Counted from the first letter of the stretch, positions 22,308-40,470 are shown. The stretch is DNA of 64,000 nt from Candidatus Woesearchaeota archaeon (GCA_021735165.1 JAIPHP010000003.1:1419-65418), one strand, 5' to 3'. Numbers and translations: made by a program. Notes: generated from the letters alone by a model not told the origin.

Positions 22308-22308
22308 A

Positions 22309-24323: not shown

Positions 24324-24332
24324 TAATGGCAC
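24286..24332. repeat. 47-bp direct repeat copy 1 (tttcactatctaagaagagaacNgagggggaagaataataatggca), flanks rhuM
   Basis: 46/47 identical to 25351-25397; contains the SD GAGGGGGAAG and the ATG of rhuM. Confidence 0.7.
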
Positions 24333-25348
24333 GGAATACAGATAATAATAAAATTGTCATCTATGAAACTGAAAAAGGGTTACCTAATATTGCAGTAAAG
24401 ATCGAAGATGAAACTGTATGGCTCACACAAGCCCAATTAGCTGATCTTTTTAGAACAACTAGACCTAATATAACAATGCATATTAGAAATCTTTTTGATG
24501 AAGGTGAATTGGATGAAAATTCAGTATGTAAGGATTTCTTACATACTGCTAATGATGGAAAAAAGTATAAAACTAAGCATTACAATCTTGATCTTATTAT
24601 TTCTTTAGGTTACAGAATTAAATCTAAAATTGCAACTAAATTTCGTCAATGGGCAACAGCAAGATTGCATGAATTCATAGTAAAAGGTTTTACTATGGAT
24701 GATGAGCGTCTAAAAAAGCTTGGTGGAGGTAATTATTGGAAAGAATTACTTGACCGTATCAAAGATATTCGTTCAAGTGAGAAAGTATTATATCGCCAAG
24801 TTCTTGACTTATATGCAACAAGCACAGATTATGATCCAAAATCAGCAGAATCAATTGATTTCTTTAAAGTTGTGCAAAATAAACTTCACTATGCAAGTCA
24901 TGGAAATACTGCTCCTGAGACAATCTATAATCGTGCAGATGCAGAAAAAGAATTTATGGGTTTGACTTCTTTTAAAGGAGACTTTCCTATCAAATCTGAT
25001 GTGGTTATTGCAAAGAACTACCTTTCAAAAAAAGAATTGAAAGTGCTTAATAATATAGTATCTGCATTCTTTGATCTGGCAGAAGTCAAAGCAATGAATC
25101 AAGAACCAATGCATATGAAAGATTGGATTATACAATTAGATCGTCTAATTCAGACATTTGACAAAGACGTCTTAACTGATGCAGGGAAGATCACTCATAA
25201 GAAAGCAGTGGAAAAAGCAGAAAAAGAATACAAAAAATACCAAGTAAAAACATTATCCCCAGTTGAAAAAGCATATCTAGAAAGCATAAAAGACGTTCAG
25301 AAGAAAGTCAAGAAAAGTGTAAATAAAGGAGCAAATAAAAATGAATGA
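24326..25348 (+). CDS. rhuM: RhuM-family protein
   Basis: N-terminus IVIYETEKG...IAVKIEDETVWLTQAQLADLF... is characteristic of RhuM, which is frequently embedded in type I R-M loci. Confidence 0.65.
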   Translation: MARNTDNNKIVIYETEKGLPNIAVKIEDETVWLTQAQLADLFRTTRPNITMHIRNLFDEGELDENSVCKDFLHTANDGKKYKTKHYNLDLIISLGYRIKSKIATKFRQWATARLHEFIVKGFTMDDERLKKLGGGNYWKELLDRIKDIRSSEKVLYRQVLDLYATSTDYDPKSAESIDFFKVVQNKLHYASHGNTAPETIYNRADAEKEFMGLTSFKGDFPIKSDVVIAKNYLSKKELKVLNNIVSAFFDLAEVKAMNQEPMHMKDWIIQLDRLIQTFDKDVLTDAGKITHKKAVEKAEKEYKKYQVKTLSPVEKAYLESIKDVQKKVKKSVNKGANKNE

Positions 25349-28362: not shown

Positions 28363-28525
28363 AGAAGATAAAAATATACTTCTGGCGATAGGAGGCATGG
28401 CATTACTTGGATGGCTTTTAAGTAAAGACAAATATAAATGTCCTAGATGCAATTATCCCGTTACTAAAGAAATGTATTCTTGTCCTAATTGCGGTCAACC
28501 TTTGGCTTGGGAGGGTAAAAAATGA
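28355..28525 (+). CDS. 56-aa membrane-anchored zinc-ribbon protein
   Basis: MNKEDKNILLAIGGMALLGWLL (TM) followed by CPRC...CPNC; overlaps the hsdS stop (ATGAATAA) and the next start (ATGA). Below the ORF-track size cut-off. Confidence 0.4.
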   Translation: MNKEDKNILLAIGGMALLGWLLSKDKYKCPRCNYPVTKEMYSCPNCGQPLAWEGKK

Positions 28526-28845
28526 CTGATAAAGTTAAACCTCTGCCACCAGTAAAAGTAAAAATCAATCTTTGGAATTATTTAAAGTTAGGATTTTTAA
28601 TTTTAATATCTTGCATACTTTGGATTACATTAATTATTACAGGCATTAATTTGTTAGGGTATTATATTAAATCAATTATAGTTAATGGATTTTTTGATCC
28701 TGAAACCTTAAAATATGCCGTCATGCTTGTTGTTGGAGCTTATTTCTTTTTAATACTCGATAAAAATAAGATCTATGAAGCACTTAATGTAAAGAGGGGT
28801 TTGCCATTCATTACAGTTGAACAAATAGAGGAGAAAAAGAAATGA
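28522..28845 (+). CDS. small membrane protein (2 TM)
   Basis: 107 aa with two hydrophobic helices; translationally coupled (ATGA) on both sides. Confidence 0.45.
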   Translation: MTDKVKPLPPVKVKINLWNYLKLGFLILISCILWITLIITGINLLGYYIKSIIVNGFFDPETLKYAVMLVVGAYFFLILDKNKIYEALNVKRGLPFITVEQIEEKKK

Positions 28846-31181
28846 ATTTGATAATTAAAGTAATTACGGATTTAGGATATTTAATTTCTCCTGAAAATAG
28901 TCTTCTACTTTATTTCACAATATTGGGTATTTTAGTTACTTTAATTTCTATTTCAAGCAGTTTAACTAAAGAAGTACGTCAAGATTTATTTTATAATTAT
29001 TATATTAAATCAAAATTTCTGATTAGTTATCTAATATTTTATTTGATTTCATTTATTATTACATTTAGTTTTTATGTGTTTGAATGGGAATATTTGGATG
29101 TGTTATTAGGAACTCTTTTCATCATATTATTTGCTTGGTCGGTCTTTGTAATCTTTTTGTTTGTTAAAAATCTCAGTAGAAACTGGTTTTATGGACAACT
29201 TATTAGAAAGTTTAAATCAGAATTAAAAAAGACCAAACGGTCAGAAACCAAATATCAAACTCACACTCGAACAGAATTCAAATCATTAGATGATTTTCTA
29301 AAGAACCTAACTTATATTGAAACTACAAGTAGTGATTTTATCGAAGAAATAGAATTTGTAAAAGAGGTTGGTAGAATTACTCTAAAATCCAGTAATAATT
29401 ATATCTTTGATGATTTTTTTAGGCAACTTAAAAAAATAGAGAATCCTAAATTCTTTAGAAAATTAAGAAATTCTCTTTATGATTTAATGTGGGACAATTT
29501 CAATGAGCTAAGGGTTGTTATAAATCTTCAAAATATATATTCATCTTTATCAATTCATAGTTTTGAGAAAGTAAAAGAATTTGATAAAAATATTAATTCT
29601 GATGGTCTTAGAATTAAATCATTTAATGATATAAGATATATTGATTTATATGAAAAATCAACAGACCTAGATTGGATTAAGAGTTATGAAAGTCTAATTG
29701 TTAATACTATCAACAACTTATTTTCTTTAAGCAAGCAAACTATTTATTTGGATCTTGCTATAAAATCAAAGAAAAGATATCTTCTAGAACAATTGGGATC
29801 GATGGTTAAAGTTTTAGAGCATTATAATCACATACATGGACAAGATTTCCTAGATAATTATTATAATTTAAAATATAAAAAAGACATATCTGGAGATGAA
29901 AAGAAAAATTTGGATTTAGCAGATAGAAAATTGAATGCAATATCAGAACTAAAATCATTTCTTTGGAATAAACTGTCTGAATTATTCTATTTAATTTTAT
30001 ATGAAATTAATAGAAATGAACTTTCAAAAGATTTTTTTGAAGTGGCATTAAAGATATTTAATATTAAAAGTTTTAAAGACCAATTTTACTCTTATGAGAG
30101 ATTTGATAAATTAGATTTTTTAAATTACGACTGGTTTGAAGGCGGGGCTCAAGCTATTGCATCATTTAATTTTAACAAGTATAAATCATTGCTTTCATTC
30201 TATCAATATAAACTCGATGAGACTCTAGATTTAAATCAATATGGTGATGAACATTTCTCCAAACATAATGTTAATGATCTTAAAAATGCATTAAATGATT
30301 TGTCTGCAGAATATATAAATAAATATTTTGAATATGATTCTAAGCAGTTAAATGATTTTAAAAAGAAAGCCATTAAGGAAATTGACAATAAAATTAAAAT
30401 TTTAAAGAAGAATAAGAAAAAATATATTGCTGAAACTCCTTTAGTGAAAAAGTATGTGAATAATTTTATTTCAGACTGTAAATCTAATTGGGATAAAAAT
30501 CAAGAGATTCTCAAAAAGATCTTTAATTATGTTGAATTAGACAATGGTTATAAAGTTAAAAATTTCTTTGGTCAATACAAATTATTTGATAAAGATTGGT
30601 TTTTAGAATCTTTTGACAAAACTGTCGCTTTAGATAGAAGTTCAGGTCAGCACTTTGGAAGAGATCAAGTTATCAGTAAACGAAAAAATATATTAACAAA
30701 AATAAATGAAACTTTTAATGCCAAAATTGATAAAGAAATTATTGTAAAAGATCTATATTCTGATTTGAAGAAAATAATAAAGAAAAATAAAGAATACGTG
30801 TTGTTTTATAATTCTGATATTGGTAGAGAAATATATAGGATTCCTGATATTCAATGGGATAGACAAGAATGGCTTACAGCTTCGTTTAAAATTAATGATT
30901 CTAAAATTTTCTTGTATGCAACAAATATCGAGGAAAGTTTATTGTTTGAAAAGGAAAGCTTCACATTAGAGCAATATAAAGAAGGCTATGAGAAAATAAA
31001 ACAACCTTTAGTAGTGCAAGTTGAAGAAATAAAGAATAAGGATGAAATTAAAAAAATCAAAGAATCAAATGATAGATTCAAAAATACTCAAGATGTTCAG
31101 CAAAACGTAAAAATAAGAATTGCGGAAAAGTTCGAGATTAAACGTAATAAAGGTTCAAAATTTATTAGACTAAAAAGATAA
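28842..31181 (+). CDS. membrane-anchored large protein of unknown function embedded in the R-M operon (candidate abortive-infection/defense effector)
   Basis: 779 aa; about 4 N-terminal TM helices then a roughly 640-aa soluble domain with no recognizable motif; located between hsdS and hsdR. Confidence 0.5.
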   Translation: MNLIIKVITDLGYLISPENSLLLYFTILGILVTLISISSSLTKEVRQDLFYNYYIKSKFLISYLIFYLISFIITFSFYVFEWEYLDVLLGTLFIILFAWSVFVIFLFVKNLSRNWFYGQLIRKFKSELKKTKRSETKYQTHTRTEFKSLDDFLKNLTYIETTSSDFIEEIEFVKEVGRITLKSSNNYIFDDFFRQLKKIENPKFFRKLRNSLYDLMWDNFNELRVVINLQNIYSSLSIHSFEKVKEFDKNINSDGLRIKSFNDIRYIDLYEKSTDLDWIKSYESLIVNTINNLFSLSKQTIYLDLAIKSKKRYLLEQLGSMVKVLEHYNHIHGQDFLDNYYNLKYKKDISGDEKKNLDLADRKLNAISELKSFLWNKLSELFYLILYEINRNELSKDFFEVALKIFNIKSFKDQFYSYERFDKLDFLNYDWFEGGAQAIASFNFNKYKSLLSFYQYKLDETLDLNQYGDEHFSKHNVNDLKNALNDLSAEYINKYFEYDSKQLNDFKKKAIKEIDNKIKILKKNKKKYIAETPLVKKYVNNFISDCKSNWDKNQEILKKIFNYVELDNGYKVKNFFGQYKLFDKDWFLESFDKTVALDRSSGQHFGRDQVISKRKNILTKINETFNAKIDKEIIVKDLYSDLKKIIKKNKEYVLFYNSDIGREIYRIPDIQWDRQEWLTASFKINDSKIFLYATNIEESLLFEKESFTLEQYKEGYEKIKQPLVVQVEEIKNKDEIKKIKESNDRFKNTQDVQQNVKIRIAEKFEIKRNKGSKFIRLKR

Positions 31182-31200: not shown

Positions 31201-34200
31201 ATGGCAAAAACTAAAGAAAGTGATTTTGAGGAGGCAATCGTTGACTCTCTTGTAAACTCAGGAGGGTATGAAGAAGGAGATCCTAAGGATTTTGATTCAG
31301 AGACAGCAATATTCAAGAATGATTTATTCAATTTTTTACAAAAAACTCAACCTAATGAGTGGAAGAAATCTCTTGAGGTTCATGGTAATGATGTTGAAGA
31401 GAAAGTTCTATTTAGATTAACGCAAGAATTACAGTCTAGAGATATTTTAGATGTACTCCGAAATGGGTTTACCGATTATGGAGTAAAATACAAATTAGCT
31501 TTTTTTAAGCCTGAGACTAAATTAAATCTTGATGATGCTAAAAGATATAAGAATAATCTCTTAAAAGTTACACGACAAGTTCATCACTCTCCTAATAATC
31601 CTGATCTTTCCTTAGATTTAGTTTTATCTATTAATGGTATTCCTGTTGCTACAGCTGAACTTAAAAATCAGTTCACAGGTCAGAATGTATCTAATGCTGA
31701 AAGGCAATATATTGAAGATAGAGATCCTAATGAATTAATTTTTCAATTTAAGAGAAGAACCTTAGTTCATTTTGCTATTGATACTGATGAAGTGTTTATG
31801 ACAACTAAACTTGAAGGTAAGAGAACTAGATATTTGCCTTTTAATCAAGGAGATAATAATGGTGCAGGTAATCCCTTAAATCCTGATGGATACAAAACTG
31901 CTTATCTTTGGGAGTATGTTTGGTCTAAAGATAGTTGGATGGATATATTACAGAAATTTGTTCATTTACAAACTGAAACCTACAAGATAGAAGGTAAAAC
32001 TATAAAAAAAGAAAAGATGATTTTTCCTAGATACCATCAATTAGATTCTGTAAGAAAACTAACTCAAGATGTAAAGTCAAAAGGTGCAGGTATTAATTAT
32101 TTAATTCAACATTCTGCAGGAAGTGGTAAATCTAATTCTATTGCCTGGTTAGCTTATAGGTTAGCAAGTCTTCATAATAAAGAAGATAAGGCTGTATTCA
32201 ATAGTGTTATTGTTGTTACTGATAGAACTGTTCTTGATAAACAATTACAAGATACAATTTATCAGTTTGAACATAAACAAGGAGTTGTTCAAAAGATTGA
32301 TAAGAATTCAACTCAATTAGCTGAATCGCTTACAAAAGGTATTCCAATTATCATTACAACATTGCAAAAGTTTCCATTTGTTCTTGATAAAATTGGTAAA
32401 TTACCTAAGAGAAAATATGCTGTTATTGTAGATGAAGCTCATTCTTCTCAAGGTGGAGAATCTTCTAAAAAGATGAAAGAAGTTCTTTCTATAAAAGACT
32501 CTGAAAAAGCATTGAATACTTTAACTGAAGAAGCTGAAGATCTTGCAGAAGATGAAATCAGGAAATCTATGGAAGCGAGAGGAAAGCAAGATAATCTAAG
32601 TTTCTTTGCATTTACTGCCACTCCTAAAAATAAAACATTAGAAGTATTTGGTCATAAGAAAAATAAGAAACCATATCCTTTCCATCTTTACTCTATGCGA
32701 CAAGCAATTGAAGAGGGATTTATTATTGATATATTAAAGAATTTTACAACATACAAAACTTATTTCAAATTATCTAAAGAAATTGAAGATGATCCTAAGA
32801 TAAATAAAAAGAAAGCTGCACGAGCAATAGCAAGGTTCTTAACTTTACACCCTCATAATTTATCACAAAAAACCGAAGTTATGGTGGAACATTTTAGACA
32901 AGTTGTAATGCATAAAATTGGAGGTAAAGCAAAAGCAATGGTTGTAACAGCCTCTAGACTTCATGCAGTAAGATACTATCAAGAGTTCAATAAATATATC
33001 AAAGAAAAAGGATATAGCAATATTAAAACACTTGTCGCATTTTCAGGGATTGTTAAAGATGAATTCGGTAACGAGTTTAAAGAAACTATTATGAATGGTT
33101 TTAAAGAAAAAGAATTGCCTGATAAGTTTAATACTAGTGAATATCAAATTCTTTTAGTTGCAGAAAAATATCAGACTGGATTTGATCAACCATTACTCCA
33201 TACTATGTATGTTGATAAAAAATTATCTGGTGTGAAAGCTGTTCAAACATTATCTAGATTAAATAGAGTTTGTTCAGGAAAAGAAGATACTTTCATCCTC
33301 GATTTTGCAAATACAGAAGAGGAAATTATTGAATCATTCCAACCTTACTATGAAATTACAACTATTGATGAACCAACAAATCCTAATAGGTTATATGATC
33401 TTAAGACAAAACTAGATCAAACAAGAGTTTATACAAATTCAGAAATAGATAGTTTTGCTAAGTTCTTCTTTAAACCAAAAGAGCGATATACTGTAAGAGA
33501 TAATGCTCAATTAAATAGATTTATTGATCCTGCAGTTGATAGATATAAAGGAATTAGCGGTGAAGATGATAAAGAAGATTTCAAACACACACTTACTGTG
33601 TTTATTAGAACTTATGCCTTCTTGGCTCAGATAATGCCTTTTAATGATGCTGAACTTGAAAAACTATTTGCATACGGTAAACTTCTTTTGAACAAACTTC
33701 CAAAAAGACAACTAGGAGAACAATTCAAACTAAATGATGAAGTTGCCTTGGAATATTATAGACTACAAAAAATCAAAGAAAGTCATATTAAACTTGAAAA
33801 AGGAAAAGTTGGAGAGTTAAACTCTGCAAAAGAAGCAGGAATAAGAAAAGACAAAGAAGAGAAAGCCAAACTATCCGAATTAATCGAAGTATTAAACGAT
33901 AGGTTTGGAACTGACTTTACTGAAGCAGATAAATTGTTCTTTGATCAAATTGAAGCTGAGCTAGTTGAAGATCAAAAGCTAAAAAGTAGTGCCGAAGTAA
34001 ATAATATTGAAAACTTCAAGTTTGGATTTGATGACCAATTCATGAATAAGTTAATTGATAGGATGGAACAAAATGAAGACATCTTTAGAAAAATAAATGA
34101 TGATAAAGTATTTGCTTCTGTAGTTAAAGACTATATGCTAAAGAAAGTTTACAATAGACTAAAAGAAGAAGAGAAAACTCTTTCAAAGTATCTAACTCAA

Positions 34201-34266
34201 GACGGTTCTGCTATGGCTGTTGCTGATAAAAAAGAAAAGTACGGTAAGAAGAAGGTGAAGAAATAA
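31201..34266 (+). CDS. hsdR: type I restriction enzyme R subunit HsdR
   Basis: 1021 aa; SF2 helicase motifs including GSGKS-like QHSAGSGKSNS and DEAH box VIVDEAHSSQ; RBS AAGGAGG upstream. Confidence 0.9.
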   Translation: MAKTKESDFEEAIVDSLVNSGGYEEGDPKDFDSETAIFKNDLFNFLQKTQPNEWKKSLEVHGNDVEEKVLFRLTQELQSRDILDVLRNGFTDYGVKYKLAFFKPETKLNLDDAKRYKNNLLKVTRQVHHSPNNPDLSLDLVLSINGIPVATAELKNQFTGQNVSNAERQYIEDRDPNELIFQFKRRTLVHFAIDTDEVFMTTKLEGKRTRYLPFNQGDNNGAGNPLNPDGYKTAYLWEYVWSKDSWMDILQKFVHLQTETYKIEGKTIKKEKMIFPRYHQLDSVRKLTQDVKSKGAGINYLIQHSAGSGKSNSIAWLAYRLASLHNKEDKAVFNSVIVVTDRTVLDKQLQDTIYQFEHKQGVVQKIDKNSTQLAESLTKGIPIIITTLQKFPFVLDKIGKLPKRKYAVIVDEAHSSQGGESSKKMKEVLSIKDSEKALNTLTEEAEDLAEDEIRKSMEARGKQDNLSFFAFTATPKNKTLEVFGHKKNKKPYPFHLYSMRQAIEEGFIIDILKNFTTYKTYFKLSKEIEDDPKINKKKAARAIARFLTLHPHNLSQKTEVMVEHFRQVVMHKIGGKAKAMVVTASRLHAVRYYQEFNKYIKEKGYSNIKTLVAFSGIVKDEFGNEFKETIMNGFKEKELPDKFNTSEYQILLVAEKYQTGFDQPLLHTMYVDKKLSGVKAVQTLSRLNRVCSGKEDTFILDFANTEEEIIESFQPYYEITTIDEPTNPNRLYDLKTKLDQTRVYTNSEIDSFAKFFFKPKERYTVRDNAQLNRFIDPAVDRYKGISGEDDKEDFKHTLTVFIRTYAFLAQIMPFNDAELEKLFAYGKLLLNKLPKRQLGEQFKLNDEVALEYYRLQKIKESHIKLEKGKVGELNSAKEAGIRKDKEEKAKLSELIEVLNDRFGTDFTEADKLFFDQIEAELVEDQKLKSSAEVNNIENFKFGFDDQFMNKLIDRMEQNEDIFRKINDDKVFASVVKDYMLKKVYNRLKEEEKTLSKYLTQDGSAMAVADKKEKYGKKKVKK

Positions 34267-34267
34267 G

Positions 34268-34648
34268 ATGGCTTTTGCATTATCATTAAAACAACCATGG
34301 GCTGAATTGATTTTACAAGGTAAGAAAACAATTGAGACTAGGAGATGGAATACTGAGTTTCGAGGAGAGTTCTATATTCATGCTTCCAAAACCATTGATA
34401 AAGAAGCTTGTGAAGAGTTAGGGATTGATCCTTCTTCTTTGGTTACTGGTGTTATTGTTGGGAAGGCAACAATAGTTGATGTTAAGGAGTATTATTCTGA
34501 AGACCAATTTATGAAAGATAATTCTAAACACCGAGCAGGATTTTATGGGTTTGGACATCCTCTTTTTGGATTCATATTGGAAGATGTAGAGCGAATCGAA
34601 CCAATTCCTCAGAAAGGTGCTCTGAAGTTTTTTGAGGTGAATGTATAA
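34268..34648 (+). CDS. ASCH-domain (PUA-like) protein
   Basis: LSLKQPWAELILQGKKTIETRRW is the hallmark ASCH N-terminal motif; starts 2 nt after the hsdR stop. Confidence 0.65.
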   Translation: MAFALSLKQPWAELILQGKKTIETRRWNTEFRGEFYIHASKTIDKEACEELGIDPSSLVTGVIVGKATIVDVKEYYSEDQFMKDNSKHRAGFYGFGHPLFGFILEDVERIEPIPQKGALKFFEVNV

Positions 34649-36912
34649 TGGGATCACGTACTGGCTCTACATTTAAGTCATTGGCTGGACGAAAGAGAGG
34701 CAGTAAATTAAAGAGTATTGGTGCTTCTATCTCTGCAGGCATGCAAGCAGGAGAAACAGCTATTGTTTCATCTGGAGGTGCTGTTAGTGCAGGATCTGGA
34801 GCAATTGTTAGTGGAGGGGGTAGTGGTGCAGGAGTTGCTTTTGTAGCACCAATTGCAGGAGCAGCTGCTTTAGTTGCAAGTAGTAAGCCTTCTATGGATG
34901 TAGTGTATCATACTACCAAGTTAGCTGATTCTGTTTTAAAAAATCTGAATGACCTAACTAACAAATATCAAACTGCAAGTCAGAATCAGCCTGTTTATTC
35001 TTATTTTGCTAAAAGTCCAGTTGAGTTTCCAGTTAATATGGTTCAGAGCATGGTTGTTGATGAAGTTTCTGATCTTGCATGGGCTAATGTAAAGAGTGAA
35101 CTTGGATTAAAGACAACTGCACACCAGGATAGAATTGCGAAATTTATCATTTCACAATTAATTGGTCTTACATTGAACATGATTAAACAGAAAATAAAAG
35201 GAGAGAAAATAGACAAGCACTTTTTCTATAAAGAAGTTATGGGTGCAGCTATTGAATATTGCCTTGATGGGTTTATGCAATCAAATGCAGAAAATGAAGT
35301 CTTATCATCAAACCCTTCTGTTGCTTATTGCCAAATGGAGACTGGCTCACAAAAAGTTTTTCAAACAGCTACAAAAGAGATTGCCAAAGAACTGGCAGAA
35401 TTAATCTATGATGATATCTCTTCTCAAAACGAGTTTCCAGAACAAAAGCAATTCAATAGGATACTAAAGAAAAGAGTCACTGAAAAACTAAAGGTAGAAG
35501 TGGAAGCCACAGAATATGAAGGGGATTCTGATTTCAAAAAGCAACGTCTTCTCGCCTCTGATCAAAAAAAAGTCCCAGATAAATTAGATAAGAAAGATGT
35601 TGTGATCTCTACTCAAACCACTGTCAATAAAAGAAAGATTGATGATTCTTTGAGAATACGATTTACCGCACCAGAGAATGATTATGTAAGGGGAAGGATA
35701 ACTCCTGCACATAGGGATTTGCTTTCTATAACATCTACTATTTCAAAAATAGAGTATCTAATGAGAAGTGGTGATGTCACGAATATTTTACCTACTGACA
35801 CAATCATTTACTCCAACACAGACATTTCTAAGAAAACCAGAAGCCTTGTTAATACACTTGCTTCTTTTTTGCTAACCTTTAACCCAAATATATCTATAAA
35901 GAAAAATAGTGCCTCTTCGGAAAAAAAAGAACAAAAGGAAAATACAGAAAAATCTGATGTTATTGTTCTATTCTCTGGAGGATTAGATAGTTTAGCAGGA
36001 TTAGAATATGCAAAGAAAAAATACAAAAACCCTAAGTTTGTATATGTGAATAATCAAGTCAATAGAACAAGTGCTGTTGTAAGATATCTTCAACATAAAC
36101 TCCATTTAGGAGATGACCTTATTATTTTCCAAAGTCAGAAAGGAGGACAATTTCTACAACAGACAAGAGGATTTTTATTTCTCTCTGCCGCGGCTGTCAC
36201 CGCAGATGTGTTTGGAGCTAAAGAAATAATTGTTGCAGAATGCGGGGTAACAAAATATCAACCCAGTACAACCATTTCTGATGAGATTACAAAAACAACC
36301 CACCGATTAATGATTGAATTGGCAGAACATATTTTCTCTGAGTTCAATATAAATGTAAAAATCAAGTTCCCATTTGATATGAAAACTAAAGCTGAGATCA
36401 TAGCAGGATATCCAGACAAAAAGCTTCTTATTGATTCTCATTCGTGTAGATCATCAAGATTTTCAGATAAAGATAAGGATGAATGTGGATATTGTTTTGC
36501 TTGTCTACTAAAAAATATAAGTTTATCTTATGTGTTGGGCAAAAAACAAGACCAGTTTTTAATTGATCCAATTACAAATTCACAATCCTTTACAACTCAG
36601 AATTTAGGAAGAACCAGATCGTTAAAGAATAAGTGCTATGAATCAATTTTCTCACTTATTAATTTCTCCAAATCAATGCTTGCAGGCAATCTTCCAGAGC
36701 CAATACAAAAGTACATGCAGGACTATGGAACAACTAAATTATTCAAGAATCATGCAGAAGATATGATTTATGGGCTTATGTTCATGAAGAATAAAGGATG
36801 GGTAAAAAATGAGAAAGTTCTCGAATTGCTTAACAAAATTGAGAAGGAATCTTGGTTTGATAAAAAACAAATACTTGAACGAAGAAAAGAATTACTAAAT
36901 GTTAAGACTTAG
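34648..36912 (+). CDS. fusion protein: Gly/Ala/Ser-rich N-terminus, unknown middle domain, C-terminal QueC-like PP-loop ATPase
   Basis: C-terminal VIVLFSGGLDSLAG (SGGxDS PP-loop) and CGYCFACLLKN Cys cluster as in QueC; N-terminal 80 aa GSxGAxVSGGGSGAGVAFVAPIAGAAALVASS (Gly-zipper/hydrophobic); 1-nt overlap with the ASCH gene. Confidence 0.6.
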   Translation: MGSRTGSTFKSLAGRKRGSKLKSIGASISAGMQAGETAIVSSGGAVSAGSGAIVSGGGSGAGVAFVAPIAGAAALVASSKPSMDVVYHTTKLADSVLKNLNDLTNKYQTASQNQPVYSYFAKSPVEFPVNMVQSMVVDEVSDLAWANVKSELGLKTTAHQDRIAKFIISQLIGLTLNMIKQKIKGEKIDKHFFYKEVMGAAIEYCLDGFMQSNAENEVLSSNPSVAYCQMETGSQKVFQTATKEIAKELAELIYDDISSQNEFPEQKQFNRILKKRVTEKLKVEVEATEYEGDSDFKKQRLLASDQKKVPDKLDKKDVVISTQTTVNKRKIDDSLRIRFTAPENDYVRGRITPAHRDLLSITSTISKIEYLMRSGDVTNILPTDTIIYSNTDISKKTRSLVNTLASFLLTFNPNISIKKNSASSEKKEQKENTEKSDVIVLFSGGLDSLAGLEYAKKKYKNPKFVYVNNQVNRTSAVVRYLQHKLHLGDDLIIFQSQKGGQFLQQTRGFLFLSAAAVTADVFGAKEIIVAECGVTKYQPSTTISDEITKTTHRLMIELAEHIFSEFNINVKIKFPFDMKTKAEIIAGYPDKKLLIDSHSCRSSRFSDKDKDECGYCFACLLKNISLSYVLGKKQDQFLIDPITNSQSFTTQNLGRTRSLKNKCYESIFSLINFSKSMLAGNLPEPIQKYMQDYGTTKLFKNHAEDMIYGLMFMKNKGWVKNEKVLELLNKIEKESWFDKKQILERRKELLNVKT

Positions 36913-37570
36913 TTTGCTCATTAAAACTATAATATCCTTCATTACCAATAATTACATGATCCAACACTTTAATAGATAATAATTCTCCTGACTTAAACAA
37001 TATGTCTGTAATTTTAATATCTTCTTCTGAAGGTTCTGCTTCTCCTGATGGGTGATTGTGAACAAGAATAACAGAATTTGCACTTTCTTTTATTGCAGAT
37101 TTGAAGACTTCACGAGGATGAATCAAAGAACTATTCAAAGTACCTACAGAAATAATTTCATCCTTGATAACTCTGTTTCTTGTATCTAGATGTAAGATCA
37201 TGAAGTGTTCTTTATCCGCTCCATTAAGTTTTGGGTGTGCATAATCAAATACATCTTTTGCTGATTTTATTGGTTTTCCATTTTGTTTAGATAAACTGTG
37301 TCTTTTATTGAATTCAAATAGTGCAATTATTTGAGAAGCTTTAGCTTTTCCTATGCCTTTAATCTCTTGTAATTCTTTTAATGAACAAGAAGACAATTTA
37401 TTAACTCCATATTTAGAAATAAGTCTATTGGACATATCAATTACGTTTTCTTCTTTTGTTCCTTTTTGTAGAATCACAGCTAATAGTTCTGAGTCTGAAA
37501 GTACAGAAACTCCTTGTTTTTCCATTCTTTCTCTAGGTCTATTCTCTAAAGAGATGTCTTTAATACGCAT
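36902..37570 (-). CDS. radC: RadC-family JAB/MPN (JAMM) domain protein
   Basis: JAMM motif HNHPSGEAEPSEED (HxHx7Sx2D), N-terminal HhH-like region; typical RadC/DUF2466. Confidence 0.8.
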   Translation of the reverse strand: MRIKDISLENRPRERMEKQGVSVLSDSELLAVILQKGTKEENVIDMSNRLISKYGVNKLSSCSLKELQEIKGIGKAKASQIIALFEFNKRHSLSKQNGKPIKSAKDVFDYAHPKLNGADKEHFMILHLDTRNRVIKDEIISVGTLNSSLIHPREVFKSAIKESANSVILVHNHPSGEAEPSEEDIKITDILFKSGELLSIKVLDHVIIGNEGYYSFNEQTKS

Positions 37571-37628: not shown

Positions 37629-37814
37629 TCACTTTTTCTGAACAATTATTTCATGTATTTCTCTAATTCTTTTTTCATTTATCATCTCATCACTTAGCAA
37701 TAAATCTCTAATAAATTGAGAAAGAGAAATGTATCCTTTGCATTCTTTTCTTAATTGTATTAATTCGTATTGTTTTGTAGTTACTCTAAAGTTGATGAAT
37801 CTAGTTCTTTTCAT
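37629..37814 (-). CDS. ribbon-helix-helix (MobC/CopG-like) small DNA-binding protein
   Basis: RTRFINFRVTTKQYELIQLRKECKG-YISLSQFIRDLLL pattern; 4-nt overlap with the upstream ligase gene. Confidence 0.45.
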   Translation of the reverse strand: MKRTRFINFRVTTKQYELIQLRKECKGYISLSQFIRDLLLSDEMINEKRIREIHEIIVQKK

Positions 37815-38620
37815 TTATCTTCTCTCACTCTTAAGATTTTTGGAAATCTCAACTTATAGCTGTCTTCTTTTTTATACATCATGTCATACCCAACCTCGAC
37901 TGTTTGTCCATTCTCTATATATAGTTTTGAGCTTGCTGTTCCTATCTGTTTTTCTCCTTCATTTAATGTGTATATCCATCCAAGATTATCTTTTCTTTCT
38001 CTTCTACTAATTACTTGCAAGTCTACTGTTCTAAGTGGTTTTTTCTTTAGCCAATTATATCGAGAGCCTGGATGATAAGGACTGCAGTTCTTTACTACTA
38101 TTCCTTCCATTCCTTTTTTTATCATCTTTGTATAAAACTCTTGTATGTCAACGATAGTATTGGTGCAAAAGAATGGAACGTGAGAAAGATGTTTATTTTC
38201 CTCAATCATCAAACCTAGATGTTGTTTTCGGGATAATAATGGATCTTTATAGAGGAAATGTTCTCCTATCTGTAAAACATCAAAAACAAAATATACAAAC
38301 TTTTGTCCAGGAGGAAGTTTCTTTAGCAGTACCGAATTTGAACTTAATATTTTTCCATTATCGACTACTGCTATTTCTCCATCCAGTATCATATTGATTC
38401 CATGAATTCCTTTTATTACTTCTTCTCCAAGATTTCCAAATCTTTTAGTCCAGTCTGCTCCACTTCTTGTAAAGAACTTGATATCATCTCCTTGTTTCAA
38501 ACATAGAATACGAACTCCATCTATCTTTGGCTCTACAAATACTCCCTCGTTATTGTAGAGAAAGATTCCTAAATCGCCTTCTCCTACTAATTGTGGCTTA
38601 AATTTCGTCAGATCTATCAT
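37811..38620 (-). CDS. small ATP-dependent DNA ligase
   Basis: Adenylation motif I EPKIDGVRIL (KxDGxR), motif V-like EGIVVK; 269 aa minimal ligase typical of mobile elements. Confidence 0.7.
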   Translation of the reverse strand: MIDLTKFKPQLVGEGDLGIFLYNNEGVFVEPKIDGVRILCLKQGDDIKFFTRSGADWTKRFGNLGEEVIKGIHGINMILDGEIAVVDNGKILSSNSVLLKKLPPGQKFVYFVFDVLQIGEHFLYKDPLLSRKQHLGLMIEENKHLSHVPFFCTNTIVDIQEFYTKMIKKGMEGIVVKNCSPYHPGSRYNWLKKKPLRTVDLQVISRRERKDNLGWIYTLNEGEKQIGTASSKLYIENGQTVEVGYDMMYKKEDSYKLRFPKILRVREDK

Positions 38621-38957
38621 TATTCGTTACCTCCTTAACCTCTTTATCAAGTAGCTTCAAAACCCACTTTCCACTACCTTGTGACGAGTGTGAACTCTTG
38701 AAATAAACTGCGAGTAAAGAACCAACATTAAACTCGCTGGCTTTCTCAATTATTCCATGCAGTCCTCTCATCTTGAACTTCTCTTCAGCTGTACTTTTTA
38801 CTTCCACAAGGAAAGTCTTTGTTTTACTAAACAAAACAACATCACAGACAGAATATTTTCTTCTGCCTGATGCAGCTACTCTTTCTGTATGGAAACCTTG
38901 TTCCTTCATGAGATTACAAAAATCTCTTTCATATTGCAGATGGCTTTTTAGTCTCAT
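38598..38957 (-). CDS. hjc: Holliday-junction resolvase Hjc-like PD-(D/E)xK nuclease
   Basis: ERVAASG...CDVVLFSK...LVEVKST resembles the archaeal Hjc catalytic core (E...D...EVK). Confidence 0.6.
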   Translation of the reverse strand: MRLKSHLQYERDFCNLMKEQGFHTERVAASGRRKYSVCDVVLFSKTKTFLVEVKSTAEEKFKMRGLHGIIEKASEFNVGSLLAVYFKSSHSSQGSGKWVLKLLDKEVKEVTNNDRSDEI

Positions 38958-40470
38958 CTTCTAATCGTACCTCCACTTGTTTTTTTACTAGATGATGGGC
39001 TTTGCATTTGCCCACTATCACATCTTCGTGATTCTCATATCTTTCAAGCAAAATAGTTTCTTCATGTAAGTCTTTGATTTGTTTGTCCTTATCGTACTTG
39101 ATTCCCATTTCATTACAATAAGCGATGATCCTCTCCACTTTCTTCGCATATAATAACAAACATCCTGTCTGTCTTGCCCAATCAAATAATTTGATTCCCA
39201 TAGGATTATTCATAATCAAAACGGGCTTTAGAGAATTGAATTGAGGAATCTTTCTCATATCATATGAGAAACCTTGAGACATACAACCAATCATGGAAGT
39301 GATGTATTTTTTTCCAGCCATACCAAGATATTTTCCTTTCTTATCTCGCTTAATAGAAACAGCATAACCCATAATCGGAACATCCATGATATCATCATAG
39401 ACATAAATTAGATAATCTATTGGATCATTATCAAACTTCCAAACATCAACTAAACGTTTTCCTTTCTCGTCAGTATATTTGTGAATACTATCTTTGTTAA
39501 ACCACGAAGGAATCTTCTTAGGAAAATCAGCATTAAGACGAACCTGTAATTTATACCTCTTAATCAGATACATTACAAAATAGAATATTGCCTGTTCTTC
39601 AAACGCAAAACCAAGAGAACTATTATCAAGAATGCTTTTGACTACCTCTTTTTGATGAATCTTAGGAACAAGTTCTGCAATTAAATCTTCTGGTCTTGAA
39701 GGATTGTAATAATAACGTCTTTGCTTATAGGAAAAGACTTTCAACCAACTCACGCTGACCAATCGATAAATTATCCAAGATTTGATGACTTCCTCATCAA
39801 GCTTATACCTATCCTTAAGAATGTCTACTGGAAAGATCTCATTAGAATGTATTATATCAAGATACGCAGTCCTAATTCCCTTAGGCATCAAATTCAATAT
39901 TTTAAGCTTGACAGCATCATCATCCCTGCCATAGACATATCCTGGTTTTCTACCATGAATCATCTCAGTAGCAGGAATAGTGAACTCACTTCTGCTAATC
40001 TTTCCAGCAGTAAACAACTCCCTAATACACTGATAAGTATAATCCCAATTACCATAATCCTCAAGAGATGGATAATCCTTAAGCTGATAGAAGACCTCTG
40101 CTAAAGTAAGCCCTGCCTTATTATTCTGAAAGATCTCAAAGACTTTAGCCTTGATACCAACCAAGAGCTCATCAGTATCAACTGTCTTGTTAAAAGACTC
40201 AATCTTCCTATTGACATCATCCTCACTAATACCATACACAAAAGAACGAGAACACATCCTTTTCTCAGACTGGACTCTAACCTTACTCTTAACAATCAAA
40301 TCCTTAAGCAATAATTGCTTTAAATAACTAGAAACATGATGCTTCTGAAGAGAAGTACCCTTAAACTCATCAGCAATCTCACTGGAAATCACAGCCCTCT
40401 TACGCACTATGAATTTATAGATCTTGTAAGTGTAAGATCCAGTATTGAACATAATATTCTTTTCCGCCAT
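38929..40470 (-). CDS. hypothetical protein with N-terminal wHTH-like region, adjacent to the putative attR
   Basis: 513 aa ORF; first gene inside the right border; no integrase catalytic motifs recognized. Confidence 0.45.
   Translation of the reverse strand: MAEKNIMFNTGSYTYKIYKFIVRKRAVISSEIADEFKGTSLQKHHVSSYLKQLLLKDLIVKSKVRVQSEKRMCSRSFVYGISEDDVNRKIESFNKTVDTDELLVGIKAKVFEIFQNNKAGLTLAEVFYQLKDYPSLEDYGNWDYTYQCIRELFTAGKISRSEFTIPATEMIHGRKPGYVYGRDDDAVKLKILNLMPKGIRTAYLDIIHSNEIFPVDILKDRYKLDEEVIKSWIIYRLVSVSWLKVFSYKQRRYYYNPSRPEDLIAELVPKIHQKEVVKSILDNSSLGFAFEEQAIFYFVMYLIKRYKLQVRLNADFPKKIPSWFNKDSIHKYTDEKGKRLVDVWKFDNDPIDYLIYVYDDIMDVPIMGYAVSIKRDKKGKYLGMAGKKYITSMIGCMSQGFSYDMRKIPQFNSLKPVLIMNNPMGIKLFDWARQTGCLLLYAKKVERIIAYCNEMGIKYDKDKQIKDLHEETILLERYENHEDVIVGKCKAHHLVKKQVEVRLEDETKKPSAI

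What the first reader, a model, noticed from the sequence alone, without database searches (positions are those of the whole stretch)
34268..37570. ASCH protein, Gly-rich/QueC-like fusion protein and convergent JAB(RadC) gene downstream of hsdR: candidate novel 7-deazaguanine-linked defense module
Seen in sequence: a 754-aa ORF ends in a clear QueC-like PP-loop domain (SGGLDS) with the QueC-type C-terminal cysteine cluster (CGYCFACLL). No other queuosine/archaeosine pathway gene (QueD, QueE, FolE, TGT/DpdA) is nearby. Its first 80 residues are a Gly/Ala/Ser-rich, partly hydrophobic Gly-zipper-like segment, and about 350 residues in between have no recognizable motif. It overlaps by 1 nt an upstream ASCH (PUA-like, modified-nucleic-acid-reader fold) gene that starts 2 nt after hsdR. 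Its 3' end overlaps a convergent JAB/JAMM (RadC) gene. Established knowledge: QueC-like proteins outside queuosine synthesis have been reported in anti-phage systems (QueC-like QatC in QatABCD; QueC-like ancillary proteins of some CBASS operons; 7-deazaguanine DNA modification dpd clusters). JAB proteases commonly partner with protein-conjugation systems. ASCH/EVE PUA-like domains are coupled to modification-dependent restriction. I do not recognize this fusion architecture, or an ASCH/QueC-like/JAB neighbourhood inside a type I R-M island, as a described system. Hypotheses: a nucleobase-protein or nucleobase-DNA conjugating effector acting on modified phage DNA, or a membrane-targeted abortive-infection effector.
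Basis: partly seen in the sequence, partly recalled or inferred. Interest (0 to 1): 0.9.

Follow-up and report, generated by a model that had tools for sequence, protein, structure and literature searches.

The report
Archaeal ASCH plus fused QatC-like defence pair
Two tightly coupled genes in a DPANN archaeon encode a small ASCH hydrolase-like protein and a large protein that seems to join a Qat-type protein-tagging enzyme to its own target tail, a compact and undescribed variant of a known anti-virus system.

Summary
The 754-aa protein's C-terminal ~460 residues are a QatC-family enzyme, not biosynthetic QueC. They score 88.5 bits on NCBIfam QatC versus 24.9 on QueC. hhalign to canonical QatC gives 99.8%. 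The best PDB fold match is QatC from QatB-QatC crystals, over ~470 columns. The QatC-type Thr-x-Thr and Asp63 equivalent are invariant, and QueC catalytic motifs are absent.

The N-terminal ~295 residues are an invariant MGSRTG start, a variable 57-109-aa tail and a ~220-aa helical bundle. This mirrors QatB (MGTS, disordered tail, helical domain), the presumed QatC substrate. No sequence or fold similarity to QatB was found.

Only nine such fusion clusters turned up in the databases searched. ASCH, with intact Lys/Glu catalytic residues, lies directly upstream in eight of nine loci, usually with stop/start overlap, behind varied defence genes. A related ASCH also neighbours a different QatC-family protein.

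RadC recurs only in the closest relative and is not part of the module. The Gly-rich composition is not conserved, so the membrane idea is unsupported.

Verdict: a new single-chain, ASCH-partnered archaeal variant of the Qat (QatBC) kind. Self-modification of Gly2 and the role of ASCH are inferred.

The parts
34268..34648 (+). ASCH protein (126 aa), GKER-type octapeptide G18-K-K20-T-I-E23-T-R25; conserved partner gene
   Evidence: Pfam PF04266 at 40.4 bits. Best PDB sequence matches are the TRIP4 ASCH domain, TTHA0113 (2DP9) and EOLA1. K20, E23 and R25 are invariant in 8 loci. The gene lies directly upstream of the fusion in 8 of 9 loci.
34634..34650 (+). Translational-coupling junction: GAGGTG Shine-Dalgarno-like motif inside the ASCH 3' end, with the TAA stop overlapping the fusion ATG
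   Evidence: GAGGTG or AAGGTG lies 8-9 nt before the ATG in all 8 loci. A 1-nt stop/start overlap occurs in 6 of 8.
34648..34671 (+). Residues 1-8, MGSRTGST: invariant N-terminal motif and presumed acceptor glycine (Gly2 after Met removal)
   Evidence: M1 G2 S3 R4 T5 are invariant in all nine family members. Residues 1-14 stay 64-100% identical while the adjoining tail falls to 5-22%. Codons 2-4 vary synonymously. Compare QatB MGTS and CD-NTase MGGS (PMC13279940).
34672..34833 (+). Residues 9-62: variable Gly/Ala/Ser-rich tether, with a predicted helix at 18-41 and disorder at 44-62
   Evidence: Across the family the tail is 57-109 aa long with 6-21% Gly. AF2 pLDDT is below 50 at residues 44-62.
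34834..35490 (+). Residues 63-281: helical bundle of about 10 helices, an orphan fold occupying the QatB position
35533..35937 (+). Residues 296-430: QatC-type N-terminal alpha/beta extension carrying invariant D357 (equivalent of QatC D63)
   Evidence: The hhalign alignment to canonical QatC starts in this region. AF2 predicts strands and helices here with pLDDT mostly 55-90, except residues 323-341 (below 50). Foldseek aligns about 470 columns to QatC chains 9y02_B and 9y01_B.
35938..36567 (+). Residues 431-640: QueC-fold PP-loop ATPase core of QatC type. It holds SGGLDS 443-448, R507/F511, E531xG533, T548-K-T550-T-H552, P575(x)4T580-K581, and Zn cysteines C600, C613, C616, C619
   Evidence: NCBIfam QatC 88.5 bits versus QueC 24.9. 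PADLOC QatC E 2.2e-22. PDB QatC chains are the best sequence hits. Motifs tabulated. QueC motifs YxQxHxxE, VPxRN and YPDC are absent.
36568..36912 (+). Residues 641-754 plus the stop codon: C-terminal helical extension, as in QatC
   Evidence: AF2 predicts helices 661-751 with pLDDT 71-95. The region falls within the ~470-column Foldseek alignment to QatC. It was not aligned at sequence level.

Best explanation
This is a two-gene, translationally coupled module from an archaeal defence island. Gene 2 encodes a single-chain 'QatBC-like' protein: a QatC-family PP-loop ATPase fused behind its own presumptive protein substrate.

Proposed mechanism:
1. Methionine aminopeptidase removes Met1 and exposes Gly2 (inferred from the general rule for a small second residue).
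2. The flexible 57-109-residue tail delivers the conserved GSRTG N-terminus into the QatC-type active site, either of the same chain or of a neighbouring chain in an oligomer (inferred by analogy with QatB-QatC and CdnD-Cap9 crystal structures).
3. The enzyme adenylates a carboxylate substrate (7-carboxy-7-deazaguanine or a related, still unknown acid) and the Gly2 amine attacks it, forming an N-terminal amide adduct (inferred).
4. The modified protein, through its helical domain, then acts against an invading virus or plasmid in an unknown way, as is also unresolved for Qat.

Gene 1 encodes an ASCH protein with an intact Lys/Glu catalytic dyad of the nucleobase-amide hydrolase type. Genomic linkage shows it works with gene 2. 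My preferred guess is that it binds or hydrolyses the nucleobase-amide adduct, as a reader or eraser. Alternatively it senses or processes nucleic acid. RadC, hsdR and the neighbouring genes are context, not components.
For: QatC identity.
- NCBIfam QatC E 4e-25 versus QueC 1.2e-5. PADLOC QatC E 2.2e-22.
- PDB QatC chains are the top sequence hits.
- hhalign to canonical QatC from four qatABCD plasmid operons gives probability 99.8%, E 5.9e-30, with D63 aligned to invariant D357.
- AF2 plus Foldseek: QatC chains of QatB-QatC crystals at E 2.5e-11 over 468-474 columns, versus QueC at 4.6e-4 over 220 columns.
- Invariant T548/T550 sit where QatC has its hallmark Thr-x-Thr (PMC13279940, PMC13639016).

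Substrate-like N-terminus.
- MGSRT is invariant in all nine members. Residues 1-14 are 64-100% identical while the tail is 5-22%. Codons 2-4 vary synonymously.
- The layout (Gly2 motif, variable tail of 57-109 aa, ~10-helix domain of ~220 aa, then QatC) mirrors QatB plus QatC in order and size (PMC13279940).
- 123 of 124 QatB sequences collected start MGTS.

Module.
- ASCH lies directly upstream in 8 of 9 loci with a conserved SD-like motif and, in 6 of 8, a stop/start overlap. The upstream neighbours are unrelated: type I R-M twice, HmaC, SMODS+DUF6602, an LMBR1-like protein.
- A 69%-identical ASCH lies next to a different QatC-family protein in another orientation.
- The ASCH catalytic K20/E23/R25 are invariant (bioRxiv 10.64898/2026.02.27.708502).

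QatB and QatC alone suffice for defence against some phages (PMC13279940), so a minimal QatBC-like unit is plausible.
Against: - The AF2 full-length model did not place the N-terminus with confidence (pLDDT 29 for residues 1-10).
- Several QatC signature motifs are missing (WxR, DxW/YxxxF, RR after the Zn site) and the score is far below the NCBIfam cutoff (88.5 versus 280).
- QatA and QatD are absent.
- QatC chemistry itself is unresolved in the literature.
- A defence role is inferred from context only. No virus, phenotype or expression data exist.
- The ASCH family is large and slow-evolving. Many DPANN ASCH proteins are 50-63% identical, so its high conservation is not specific to this module.
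- One locus (L014, a 2.7-kb contig) has no ASCH directly upstream.
Confidence: 0.6

Rival explanations
1. Three-gene ASCH / QueC-like / JAB(RadC) system. RadC would act as the deconjugating or processing protease for a nucleobase-protein or protein-protein conjugate, as Cap3 does in type II CBASS.
For: RadC is convergent, overlaps the fusion 3' end by 11 nt and has a full JAB domain. The same arrangement occurs in L001/L002.
Against: L001/L002 come from a close relative (88% identity) with general synteny. In the other loci the downstream gene is a 212-aa orphan (L003), a DNA ligase (L006), a 566-aa orphan (L008), a secreted hydrolase-like protein (L017) or an unrelated fragment (L015). RadC scores as an ordinary RadC family member (256.6 bits, above the 180 cutoff).
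Confidence: 0.04
2. Membrane-targeted abortive-infection effector. The Gly/Ala/Ser-rich N-terminus would be a Gly-zipper membrane segment that inserts or forms pores when the enzyme is activated.
For: Residues 60-78 (GAGVAFVAPIAGAAALVAS) reach Kyte-Doolittle 1.82 over 19 residues, which is borderline for a membrane helix.
Against: In distant members the tail is short and charged (P0022: 23% charged, 12% Gly) or Ser/Pro-rich (P0023: 6% Gly). Maximum hydropathy there is only 1.07-1.47 and falls elsewhere. What is conserved is the extreme N-terminus, not the hydrophobic stretch. AF2 packs residues 63-78 into the helical bundle at pLDDT 77-90.
Confidence: 0.05
3. RNA-directed pair. ASCH would act as a tRNA N4-acetylcytidine deacetylase, and the QatC-like PP-loop enzyme would adenylate and modify a nucleobase in tRNA or other RNA, as TilS, ThiI or TtcA do. 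This could be housekeeping or an RNA-targeting defence. The N-terminal region would then be an RNA-binding or regulatory domain rather than a substrate.
For: All 19 ASCH proteins tested in bioRxiv 10.64898/2026.02.27.708502 removed ac4C from tRNA, including GKER-type ones. This ASCH belongs to a very large archaeal family (5898 hits). PP-loop ATPases commonly act on tRNA bases (established knowledge). No chemistry has been reconstituted for QatC (PMC13279940, PMC13639016).
Against: The distribution is extremely sparse and patchy: nine fusion clusters from a k-mer-prefiltered search of 5.8 billion clusters plus an exhaustive HMM search, with the N-terminal profile, of 1.84 billion representatives. 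The neighbourhoods vary, are defence-rich or adjoin mobile elements. The closest characterised relatives (QatC, Cap9) modify protein N-termini. An invariant Gly2 motif on a variable tether is hard to explain by RNA binding.
Confidence: 0.12
4. Accessory of the type I restriction-modification system. ASCH would read modified or foreign DNA and the QatC-like protein would modify or regulate HsdR or DNA. The pair would work only together with hsdMSR.
For: ASCH starts 1 nt after the hsdR stop, on the same strand. An hsdR-ASCH-fusion order occurs in two lineages with different type I systems. PUA-like domains are known modified-base readers (established knowledge).
Against: The pair follows HmaC in L006, which is closer to the window (73%) than L003. 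It follows SMODS+DUF6602 in L007 and an LMBR1-like membrane protein in L008. In L015/L016 the upstream context is not visible on the short contigs, with a 107-nt gap before ASCH in L015.
Confidence: 0.08
5. Ordinary biosynthetic QueC (preQ0 synthase) with an N-terminal extension, as the public annotation says ('7-cyano-7-deazaguanine synthase').
For: A Pfam QueC hit at 36.5 bits and the source annotation.
Against: TIGR00364 scores 24.9 bits against a 150.3 cutoff. The QueC catalytic motifs YxQxHxxE, VPxRN and YPDC are absent in all nine members. The substrate-binding Tyr/Asp are replaced by Thr/Thr. No pathway genes were found among the ORFs scanned between about 0.5 and 53 kb. E. coli QatC does not complement a queC deletion (PMC13329287).
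Confidence: 0.01

Closest known systems
QatB-QatC core of the QatABCD anti-phage system (Gao et al. 2020; structures 9Y01/9Y02, 9VLK/9VLL, 9WVJ; PMC13279940, PMC13376578, PMC13639016)
   Same: The enzyme is a QueC fold with QatC-type N- and C-terminal extensions, a PP-loop, a four-Cys zinc site, Thr-x-Thr in place of the QueC Tyr/Asp, and an Asp63 equivalent. The presumed substrate has an M-G-(S/T) N-terminus on a long variable disordered tail followed by a helical domain of about 200 residues. The order substrate-then-enzyme matches the qatB-qatC gene order. The location is a defence island.
   Different: Substrate and enzyme are one polypeptide. The helical domain has no detectable sequence or fold similarity to QatB. 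The motif is MGSRTG rather than MGTS. QatA (KAP NTPase) and QatD (TatD nuclease) are absent and an ASCH gene is the constant partner. Several QatC motifs are missing (WxR, DxW/YxxxF, RR) and the score is below the NCBIfam cutoff. The hosts appear to be archaeal (one Woesearchaeota assembly, one MAG labelled Methanosarcinales), whereas QatC is mainly bacterial.
Cap9-CD-NTase deazaguanylation in type IV CBASS (bioRxiv 10.1101/2025.04.06.647259; PDB 9NTO)
   Same: A QueC-family enzyme ligates a nucleobase carboxylate to the Gly2 amine of a partner protein that carries an MG(G/S) N-terminus. A second protein (Cap10, TGT family) binds the modified N-terminus, which is a possible analogy for ASCH.
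   Different: Cap9 is minimal (about 185 aa) and keeps the QueC Tyr/Asp CDG-binding residues. Here they are Thr/Thr and the protein has the QatC extensions. There is no CD-NTase, Cap10 or effector here. Foldseek ranks Cap9 (E 4.8e-3) well below QatC (E 2.5e-11).
GKER-type ASCH amidohydrolases (T. thermophilus TTHA0113/2DP9, human EOLA1, TRIP4 ASCH; bioRxiv 10.64898/2026.02.27.708502) and YqfB (PMC6972931)
   Same: The ASCH beta-barrel family, the octapeptide GxKxxExR with the catalytic Lys and Glu, and a size of about 120-130 aa. These are the top PDB sequence matches.
   Different: The known members act on N4-acetylcytidine, free or in tRNA. None is reported as a partner of a QueC-family enzyme or as part of a defence system of this type. 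The substrate here is unknown.
Other QatC-family variants seen here: FokI-domain / MGTS protein / QatC / ~205-aa orphan operons (L010-L012), QatC-TIR and QatC-PF18742 fusions (P0010-P0013, P0019-P0021), and ASCH next to a 695-aa QatC-family protein (L022-L025)
   Same: A QatC-family enzyme is combined modularly with different partners. Some include a small MGTS-bearing protein or extra fused domains.
   Different: In those, extra domains are C-terminal effectors or the substrate is a separate gene. Only the L022-L025 type shares the ASCH partner, and it lacks the MG start.

Membership tests
QatC (NCBIfam NF041925; PF06508 'cluster 2' of PMC13329287) | PP-loop SGGxDS ATP-pyrophosphatase motif | tested here: met
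   SGGLDS at 443-448, invariant in all nine members.
QatC (NCBIfam NF041925; PF06508 'cluster 2' of PMC13329287) | Invariant Thr-x-Thr (P. aeruginosa T278/T280) replacing the QueC/Cap9 Tyr/Asp nucleobase-binding residues, followed by H(P) | tested here: met
   T548-K-T550-T-H552 aligns with TRTTH of PDB QatC. T-K-T-T is invariant in all nine members; the following residue is His in eight and Ser in P0022. The residue after that is Pro in 6 of 9, and Arg/Lys in the window protein and its two closest relatives.
QatC (NCBIfam NF041925; PF06508 'cluster 2' of PMC13329287) | QatC-specific N-terminal alpha/beta extension with conserved catalytic Asp63 | tested here: met
   hhalign aligns from QatC residue 53, with D63 matched to invariant D357. 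AF2 predicts strands and helices at 296-430, and Foldseek aligns 468-474 columns to QatC chains of 427-428 residues.
QatC (NCBIfam NF041925; PF06508 'cluster 2' of PMC13329287) | Four-cysteine zinc site C...CGxCxxC followed by RR | tested here: inconclusive
   C600, C613, C616 and C619 are invariant. The first spacer is 12-13 residues rather than 19, and RR is replaced by L/I/M-K.
QatC (NCBIfam NF041925; PF06508 'cluster 2' of PMC13329287) | Other signature motifs: D(x)4R(x)7WxR, DxW/YxxxF, RxRxxxF/Y, ExG, P(x)4TK | tested here: inconclusive
   ExG (E531, G533) and P(x)4TK (P575...T580 K581) are met. RxRxxxF is QxRxxxF (Q505, R507, F511). D..R is E369..R373. WxR and DxWxxxF are absent.
QatC (NCBIfam NF041925; PF06508 'cluster 2' of PMC13329287) | Score at or above the curated equivalog cutoff (280 bits) | tested here: not met
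   88.5 bits for the window protein and 86-117 bits for P0022-P0024. Standalone QatC-like hits from metagenomes scored 75-215 bits.
QatABCD system | Operon with QatA (KAP NTPase) and QatD (TatD nuclease) | tested here: not met
   Neither appears in the window or in any of the homologous loci. Canonical operons fetched for comparison do have them.
QatB (PF28083; NCBIfam QatB) | Extreme N-terminal Met-Gly-(Thr/Ser) motif with essential Gly2 | tested here: met
   MGSRT is invariant in nine members. QatB starts MGTS in 123 of 124 sequences. The motif differs after residue 3.
QatB (PF28083; NCBIfam QatB) | Long variable disordered N-terminal tail (30-90 aa) | tested here: met
   Tail length is 57-109 aa and identity 5-22% in distant members. 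AF2 shows disorder at residues 44-62.
QatB (PF28083; NCBIfam QatB) | Homology of the helical domain to QatB, by sequence profile or fold | tested here: not met
Canonical QueC (TIGR00364, preQ0 synthase) | Catalytic motifs YxQxHxxE, VPxRN, YPDC; score at or above 150.3 bits; pathway neighbours | tested here: not met
   The motifs are absent in all nine members. The score is 24.9 bits. No QueD/QueE/FolE/TGT family was found among scanned ORFs.
ASCH domain, GKER-type amidohydrolase subgroup | ASCH fold and octapeptide GxKxxExR with catalytic Lys and Glu | tested here: met
   Pfam 40.4 bits, above the 21.2 cutoff. G18-K-K20-T-I-E23-T-R25, with K20/E23/R25 invariant. Motif definition from bioRxiv 10.64898/2026.02.27.708502.
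ASCH domain, GKER-type amidohydrolase subgroup | Amidohydrolase activity on an acylated nucleobase | not testable with these tools
   This needs an enzyme assay on ac4C and on an NDG-modified GSRTG peptide.
JAB/RadC as a module component | Conserved co-occurrence with the ASCH-fusion pair | tested here: not met
   RadC is present only in the window and in L001/L002. It is absent in L003, L006, L008, L015 and L017.

The most novel reading that the evidence does not exclude
The ASCH protein is the dedicated partner of protein N-terminal nucleobase conjugation. It would be either an eraser that hydrolyses the nucleobase-Gly2 amide, giving a writer-eraser pair for deazaguanylation-type marks, or a reader that binds the modified N-terminus as Cap10 does in type IV CBASS. 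The single-chain enzyme-substrate protein modifies itself in cis. If so, this is a minimal, self-contained archaeal immune switch and a naturally tethered system in which the long-unresolved QatC reaction could be reconstituted.
Probability: 0.2. Interest if true: 0.85.

Novelty: new variant of a known kind. Interest (0 to 1): 0.62.

Why it matters
QatC chemistry is an open problem. Three 2026 structural papers could not reconstitute the reaction or identify the carboxylate substrate, and it is unknown how a modified QatB stops phage. A natural protein that tethers the presumptive acceptor N-terminus to the enzyme might be an easier subject for mass spectrometry and structural work.

The finding also suggests that QueC-family N-terminal ligases are modular. 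The same Gly2-on-a-tether logic appears on unrelated cargo domains: CD-NTase, QatB, the small MGTS proteins of the FokI-type operons, and this orphan helical bundle.

The constant ASCH partner, a family recently shown to hydrolyse acyl-nucleobase amides, is a concrete and testable candidate for a reader or eraser of nucleobase-protein conjugates. It would also extend Qat-like immunity to DPANN archaea, where defence systems are poorly charted.

Tried and rejected
1. Biosynthetic QueC: rejected on scores, motifs and context.
2. RadC as a component: rejected by comparing downstream genes in seven distinct arrangements.
3. A conserved third gene overlapping the fusion 3' end: the 212-aa (L003) and 566-aa (L008) proteins are unrelated and have no family hits.
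5. The first full-length AF2 run gave pLDDT below 50 for residues 1-294, so it could not be used for that half. A second run on residues 1-300 with nine sequences was confident.
6. The Gly-zipper/membrane idea: rejected on non-conservation.
7. Searches for more loci. Genome contigs gave one (L013, the P0005 type, in a MAG labelled Methanosarcinales). Metagenome contigs and viral contigs gave none.
8. Bacterial promoter and terminator scans were at background level and do not suit an archaeon.
9. The SMODS protein upstream in L007 starts MGDEY, which is not a CBASS type IV-like MGGS motif.
10. A literature search found no description of a QatB-QatC fusion or of an ASCH link to QueC-family proteins. 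This shows absence from the held library, not proof of absence.

Full report
**Observation.**
- hsdR: 31201-34266 (+).
- ASCH gene: 34268-34648 (+), 126 aa.
- Large ORF: 34648-36912 (+), 754 aa. Its ATG overlaps the ASCH stop codon by one base.
- RadC gene: 36902-37570 (-). Convergent, overlapping the large ORF by 11 nt.

Pfam, NCBIfam and PADLOC confirm ASCH (40.4 bits), RadC (256.6 bits, above its cutoff) and a QueC-family hit in the C-terminal part of the large ORF. SGGLDS is at residues 443-448 and CGYCFAC at 613-619. Residues 1-80 are 21% Gly, 20% Ala and 19% Ser. A public record names the source as a Candidatus Woesearchaeota (DPANN) archaeon. The window is 31% GC.

**The enzyme half is QatC-like, not QueC.**
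- The best family match is the Qat anti-phage QueC-like protein QatC: NCBIfam NF041925 at 88.5 bits (E 4e-25) and PADLOC QatC at E 2.2e-22. Biosynthetic QueC (TIGR00364) scores 24.9 bits against a cutoff of 150.
- The best sequence matches among solved structures are QatC chains 9vlk_A and 9zee_B.
- I collected canonical qatABCD operons from four plasmids. A profile of the nine fusion C-terminal halves aligns to their QatC at 99.8% probability, E 5.9e-30, over 295 columns. The alignment starts inside the QatC-specific N-terminal extension and places the catalytic Asp63 on our invariant D357.
- An AlphaFold2 model is confident for residues 295-754. Its best PDB fold matches are the QatC chains of the QatB-QatC crystals (9y02_B, 9y01_B): E 2.5e-11, 468-474 aligned columns, TM 0.66 on the target. 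QueC gives E about 5e-4 over 220 columns and Cap9 gives 4.8e-3. The QatC-type extensions are therefore present.
- The QatC hallmark is two invariant threonines in place of the Tyr/Asp that bind 7-deazaguanine in QueC and Cap9 (PMC13279940, PMC13639016). It is conserved here as T548-K-T550-T-H552, along with R507/F511, E531xG533, P575(x)4TK and four zinc cysteines.
- The QueC catalytic motifs YxQxHxxE, VPxRN and YPDC are absent in all nine family members.
- Against strict membership: the score is far below the 280-bit equivalog cutoff, and the WxR, DxW/YxxxF and RR motifs listed in PMC13329287 are missing.

I file it as a divergent QatC-family enzyme, not a QatC equivalog.

**The N-terminal half looks like a built-in substrate.** Published work shows that QatB and QatC form a 1:1 complex that suffices for defence against some phages. 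QatB has a conserved MGTS start, a disordered tail of 30-90 residues and a ten-helix domain. Its Gly2 N-terminus sits in the QatC active site. Gly2 and the start of the tail are essential (PMC13279940, PMC13376578, PMC13639016). In type IV CBASS, the QueC-like Cap9 ligates a 7-deazaguanine carboxylate to Gly2 of the CD-NTase (bioRxiv 10.1101/2025.04.06.647259).

The 754-aa protein has about the combined length of QatB plus QatC (694-731 aa in the four plasmid operons), in the same order.
- Family size. A k-mer-prefiltered search of 5.8 billion protein clusters found six full-length relatives. An exhaustive HMM search of 1.84 billion representatives, using only the N-terminal 300 residues, added three distant ones. 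All of these are also 728-788-aa fusions, and no stand-alone relative appeared.
- Conserved start. All nine begin MGSRTG (one has Pro at position 6). Residues 1-14 stay 64-100% identical, while the adjoining tail falls to 5-22% identity. Tail length varies from 57 to 109 residues and Gly content from 6 to 21%.
- Protein-level selection. Codons 2-4 differ synonymously between loci, so selection acts on the peptide.
- Fold. A second AlphaFold2 run on residues 1-300 was confident (pLDDT 76.6, pTM 0.78). It shows a helix at 18-41, disorder at 44-62 and a bundle of about ten helices at 63-281.

This is the signature expected of an acceptor N-terminus on a flexible tether. The hydrophobic stretch at 60-78 is borderline (Kyte-Doolittle 1.82) and is not conserved in distant members.

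**The module is ASCH plus the fusion; RadC is a bystander.** I recovered genomic context for all nine fusion clusters.
- ASCH lies directly upstream on the same strand in eight of the nine. Six of those eight show the same 1-nt TAATG stop/start overlap, and all eight have a GAGGTG/AAGGTG motif 8-9 nt before the ATG.
- The ninth (L014) is a 2.7-kb contig with a divergent upstream gene.
- The gene before ASCH varies. It is hsdR of two different type I systems (window/L001 and L003), HmaC of an Hma system (L006; PADLOC 627 bits), SMODS plus DUF6602 (L007), or an LMBR1-like membrane protein (L008). It is not visible on the short L015/L016 contigs.
- The gene after the fusion also varies. It is RadC only in the window and its 88%-identical relative. 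Elsewhere it is a 212-aa orphan, a DNA ligase, a 566-aa orphan, a hydrolase-like protein or an unrelated fragment. The two orphans that overlap the 3' end are unrelated to each other.
- A 69%-identical ASCH lies convergent to a different 695-aa QatC-family protein (210 bits to NF041925; unknown 285-aa N-terminal region; no MG start) in L022-L025. This is an independent second instance of the ASCH-QatC-family association.

**What ASCH may do.** The protein carries the octapeptide G18-K-K20-T-I-E23-T-R25, and K20, E23 and R25 are invariant in eight loci. This places it in the 'GKER' subgroup with T. thermophilus TTHA0113, EOLA1 and TRIP4, which are its best PDB sequence matches. In that subgroup the Lys and Glu are required for hydrolysis of the N4-acetyl amide of cytidine (bioRxiv 10.64898/2026.02.27.708502; YqfB in PMC6972931). 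The product of Cap9-type chemistry is also a nucleobase-linked amide. A role as eraser or reader of the adduct is therefore chemically attractive, but it is only an inference. The ASCH family is very large and slow-evolving: 5898 hits, with many DPANN ASCH proteins at 50-63% identity. Its high conservation is thus not specific to this module, and an RNA-directed role remains possible.

**Context.** No queuosine or archaeosine pathway family was found among the ORFs scanned between about 0.5 and 53 kb. The last 11 kb, three ORFs over 700 aa and two smaller ones were not scanned. The surrounding island holds a Csa3/HFX_2341-like regulator, a Bro-N protein, a PD-(D/E)XK nuclease, RhuM, and hsdM/hsdS/hsdR with two orphan genes inserted. 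Downstream on the other strand lies a NikA-like / DNA ligase / Hjc / wHTH block that looks like part of a mobile element. The same ligase abuts the fusion in L006.

**Comparison, novelty and verdict.** The closest known system is the QatBC core of QatABCD.
- Shared: the enzyme family, with its specific extensions and active-site substitutions, and the Gly2-on-a-tether substrate logic.
- Different: the fusion into one chain, a non-homologous cargo domain, loss of QatA/QatD, gain of ASCH, divergent QatC motifs, and an apparently archaeal host range.

I found no description of such a fusion or of an ASCH partner in the held literature. The 2026 PF06508 family survey left archaeal clusters unanalysed. 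I therefore rate this as a new variant of a known kind.

Shown: gene structure, QatC-family identity, the conserved N-terminal motif on a variable tether, and ASCH linkage. Inferred: Met removal, self-modification of Gly2, the nature of the adduct, the defence function, and the role of ASCH.

Noticed in passing
window 28522-31181: A 107-aa predicted membrane protein and a 779-aa orphan protein are inserted between hsdS and hsdR of the type I R-M operon. In the close relative (L001/L002) the same slot holds a 602-aa AAA_15/AAA_21 ATPase, so this looks like a variable cargo slot inside the operon.
   Followed up: partly
window 37629-40470 (- strand); L006 6861-7076: A block of a NikA-like RHH protein (61 aa), a minimal ATP-dependent DNA ligase (269 aa), an Hjc-like resolvase (119 aa) and a 513-aa protein with an Lrs14-like wHTH. 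It looks like part of a mobile element. A close homologue of the ligase (its cut C-terminal 71 aa) directly abuts the fusion gene in L006, without RadC.
   Followed up: partly
L010 4469-7954; L011/L012 4301-7979: In 58% GC soil contigs the operon order is a FokI-cleavage-domain protein, a 188-195-aa protein starting MGTS, QatC (about 215 bits), then a ~205-aa orphan. This is a Qat variant without QatA/QatD. Its MGTS protein does not match QatB models.
   Followed up: partly
P0010-P0013, P0019-P0021: QatC-family proteins of 480-684 aa carry C-terminal TIR (PF13676/PF01582) or PF18742 domains, so effector domains can be fused to QatC.
   Followed up: no
L023 6001-9352; L024; L025; L022: An ASCH (69% identical to the window's) is convergent with a 695-aa QatC-family protein that has an unknown 285-aa N-terminal region. 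Upstream of that protein is a pesticin-like lysozyme-domain protein ending in a ~30-residue Gly/Ser/Ala tail. In L022 the 695-aa gene is split into 258 and 440 aa, either a frameshift or a pseudogene.
   Followed up: partly
(P0145-P0179): About 35 ASCH clusters are 60-87% identical to the window's ASCH, several times more than the nine known fusions. Most lie on short contigs and their neighbours were not examined, so the ASCH-QatC-like association may be wider than shown.
   Followed up: no
L013 (CAYSDY010000007.1): The 52%-identity member of the family lies in a MAG labelled uncultured Methanosarcinales (27% GC), next to a UDG gene and an integrase. This suggests horizontal mobility or a binning error.
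   Followed up: no
window 21708-25348: Upstream of hsdM lie a Csa3/HFX_2341-like Rossmann-wHTH regulator, a Bro-N protein, a PD-(D/E)XK nuclease and a RhuM-family protein. The relative L001 has GmrSD plus PD-(D/E)XK at this position.
   Followed up: no
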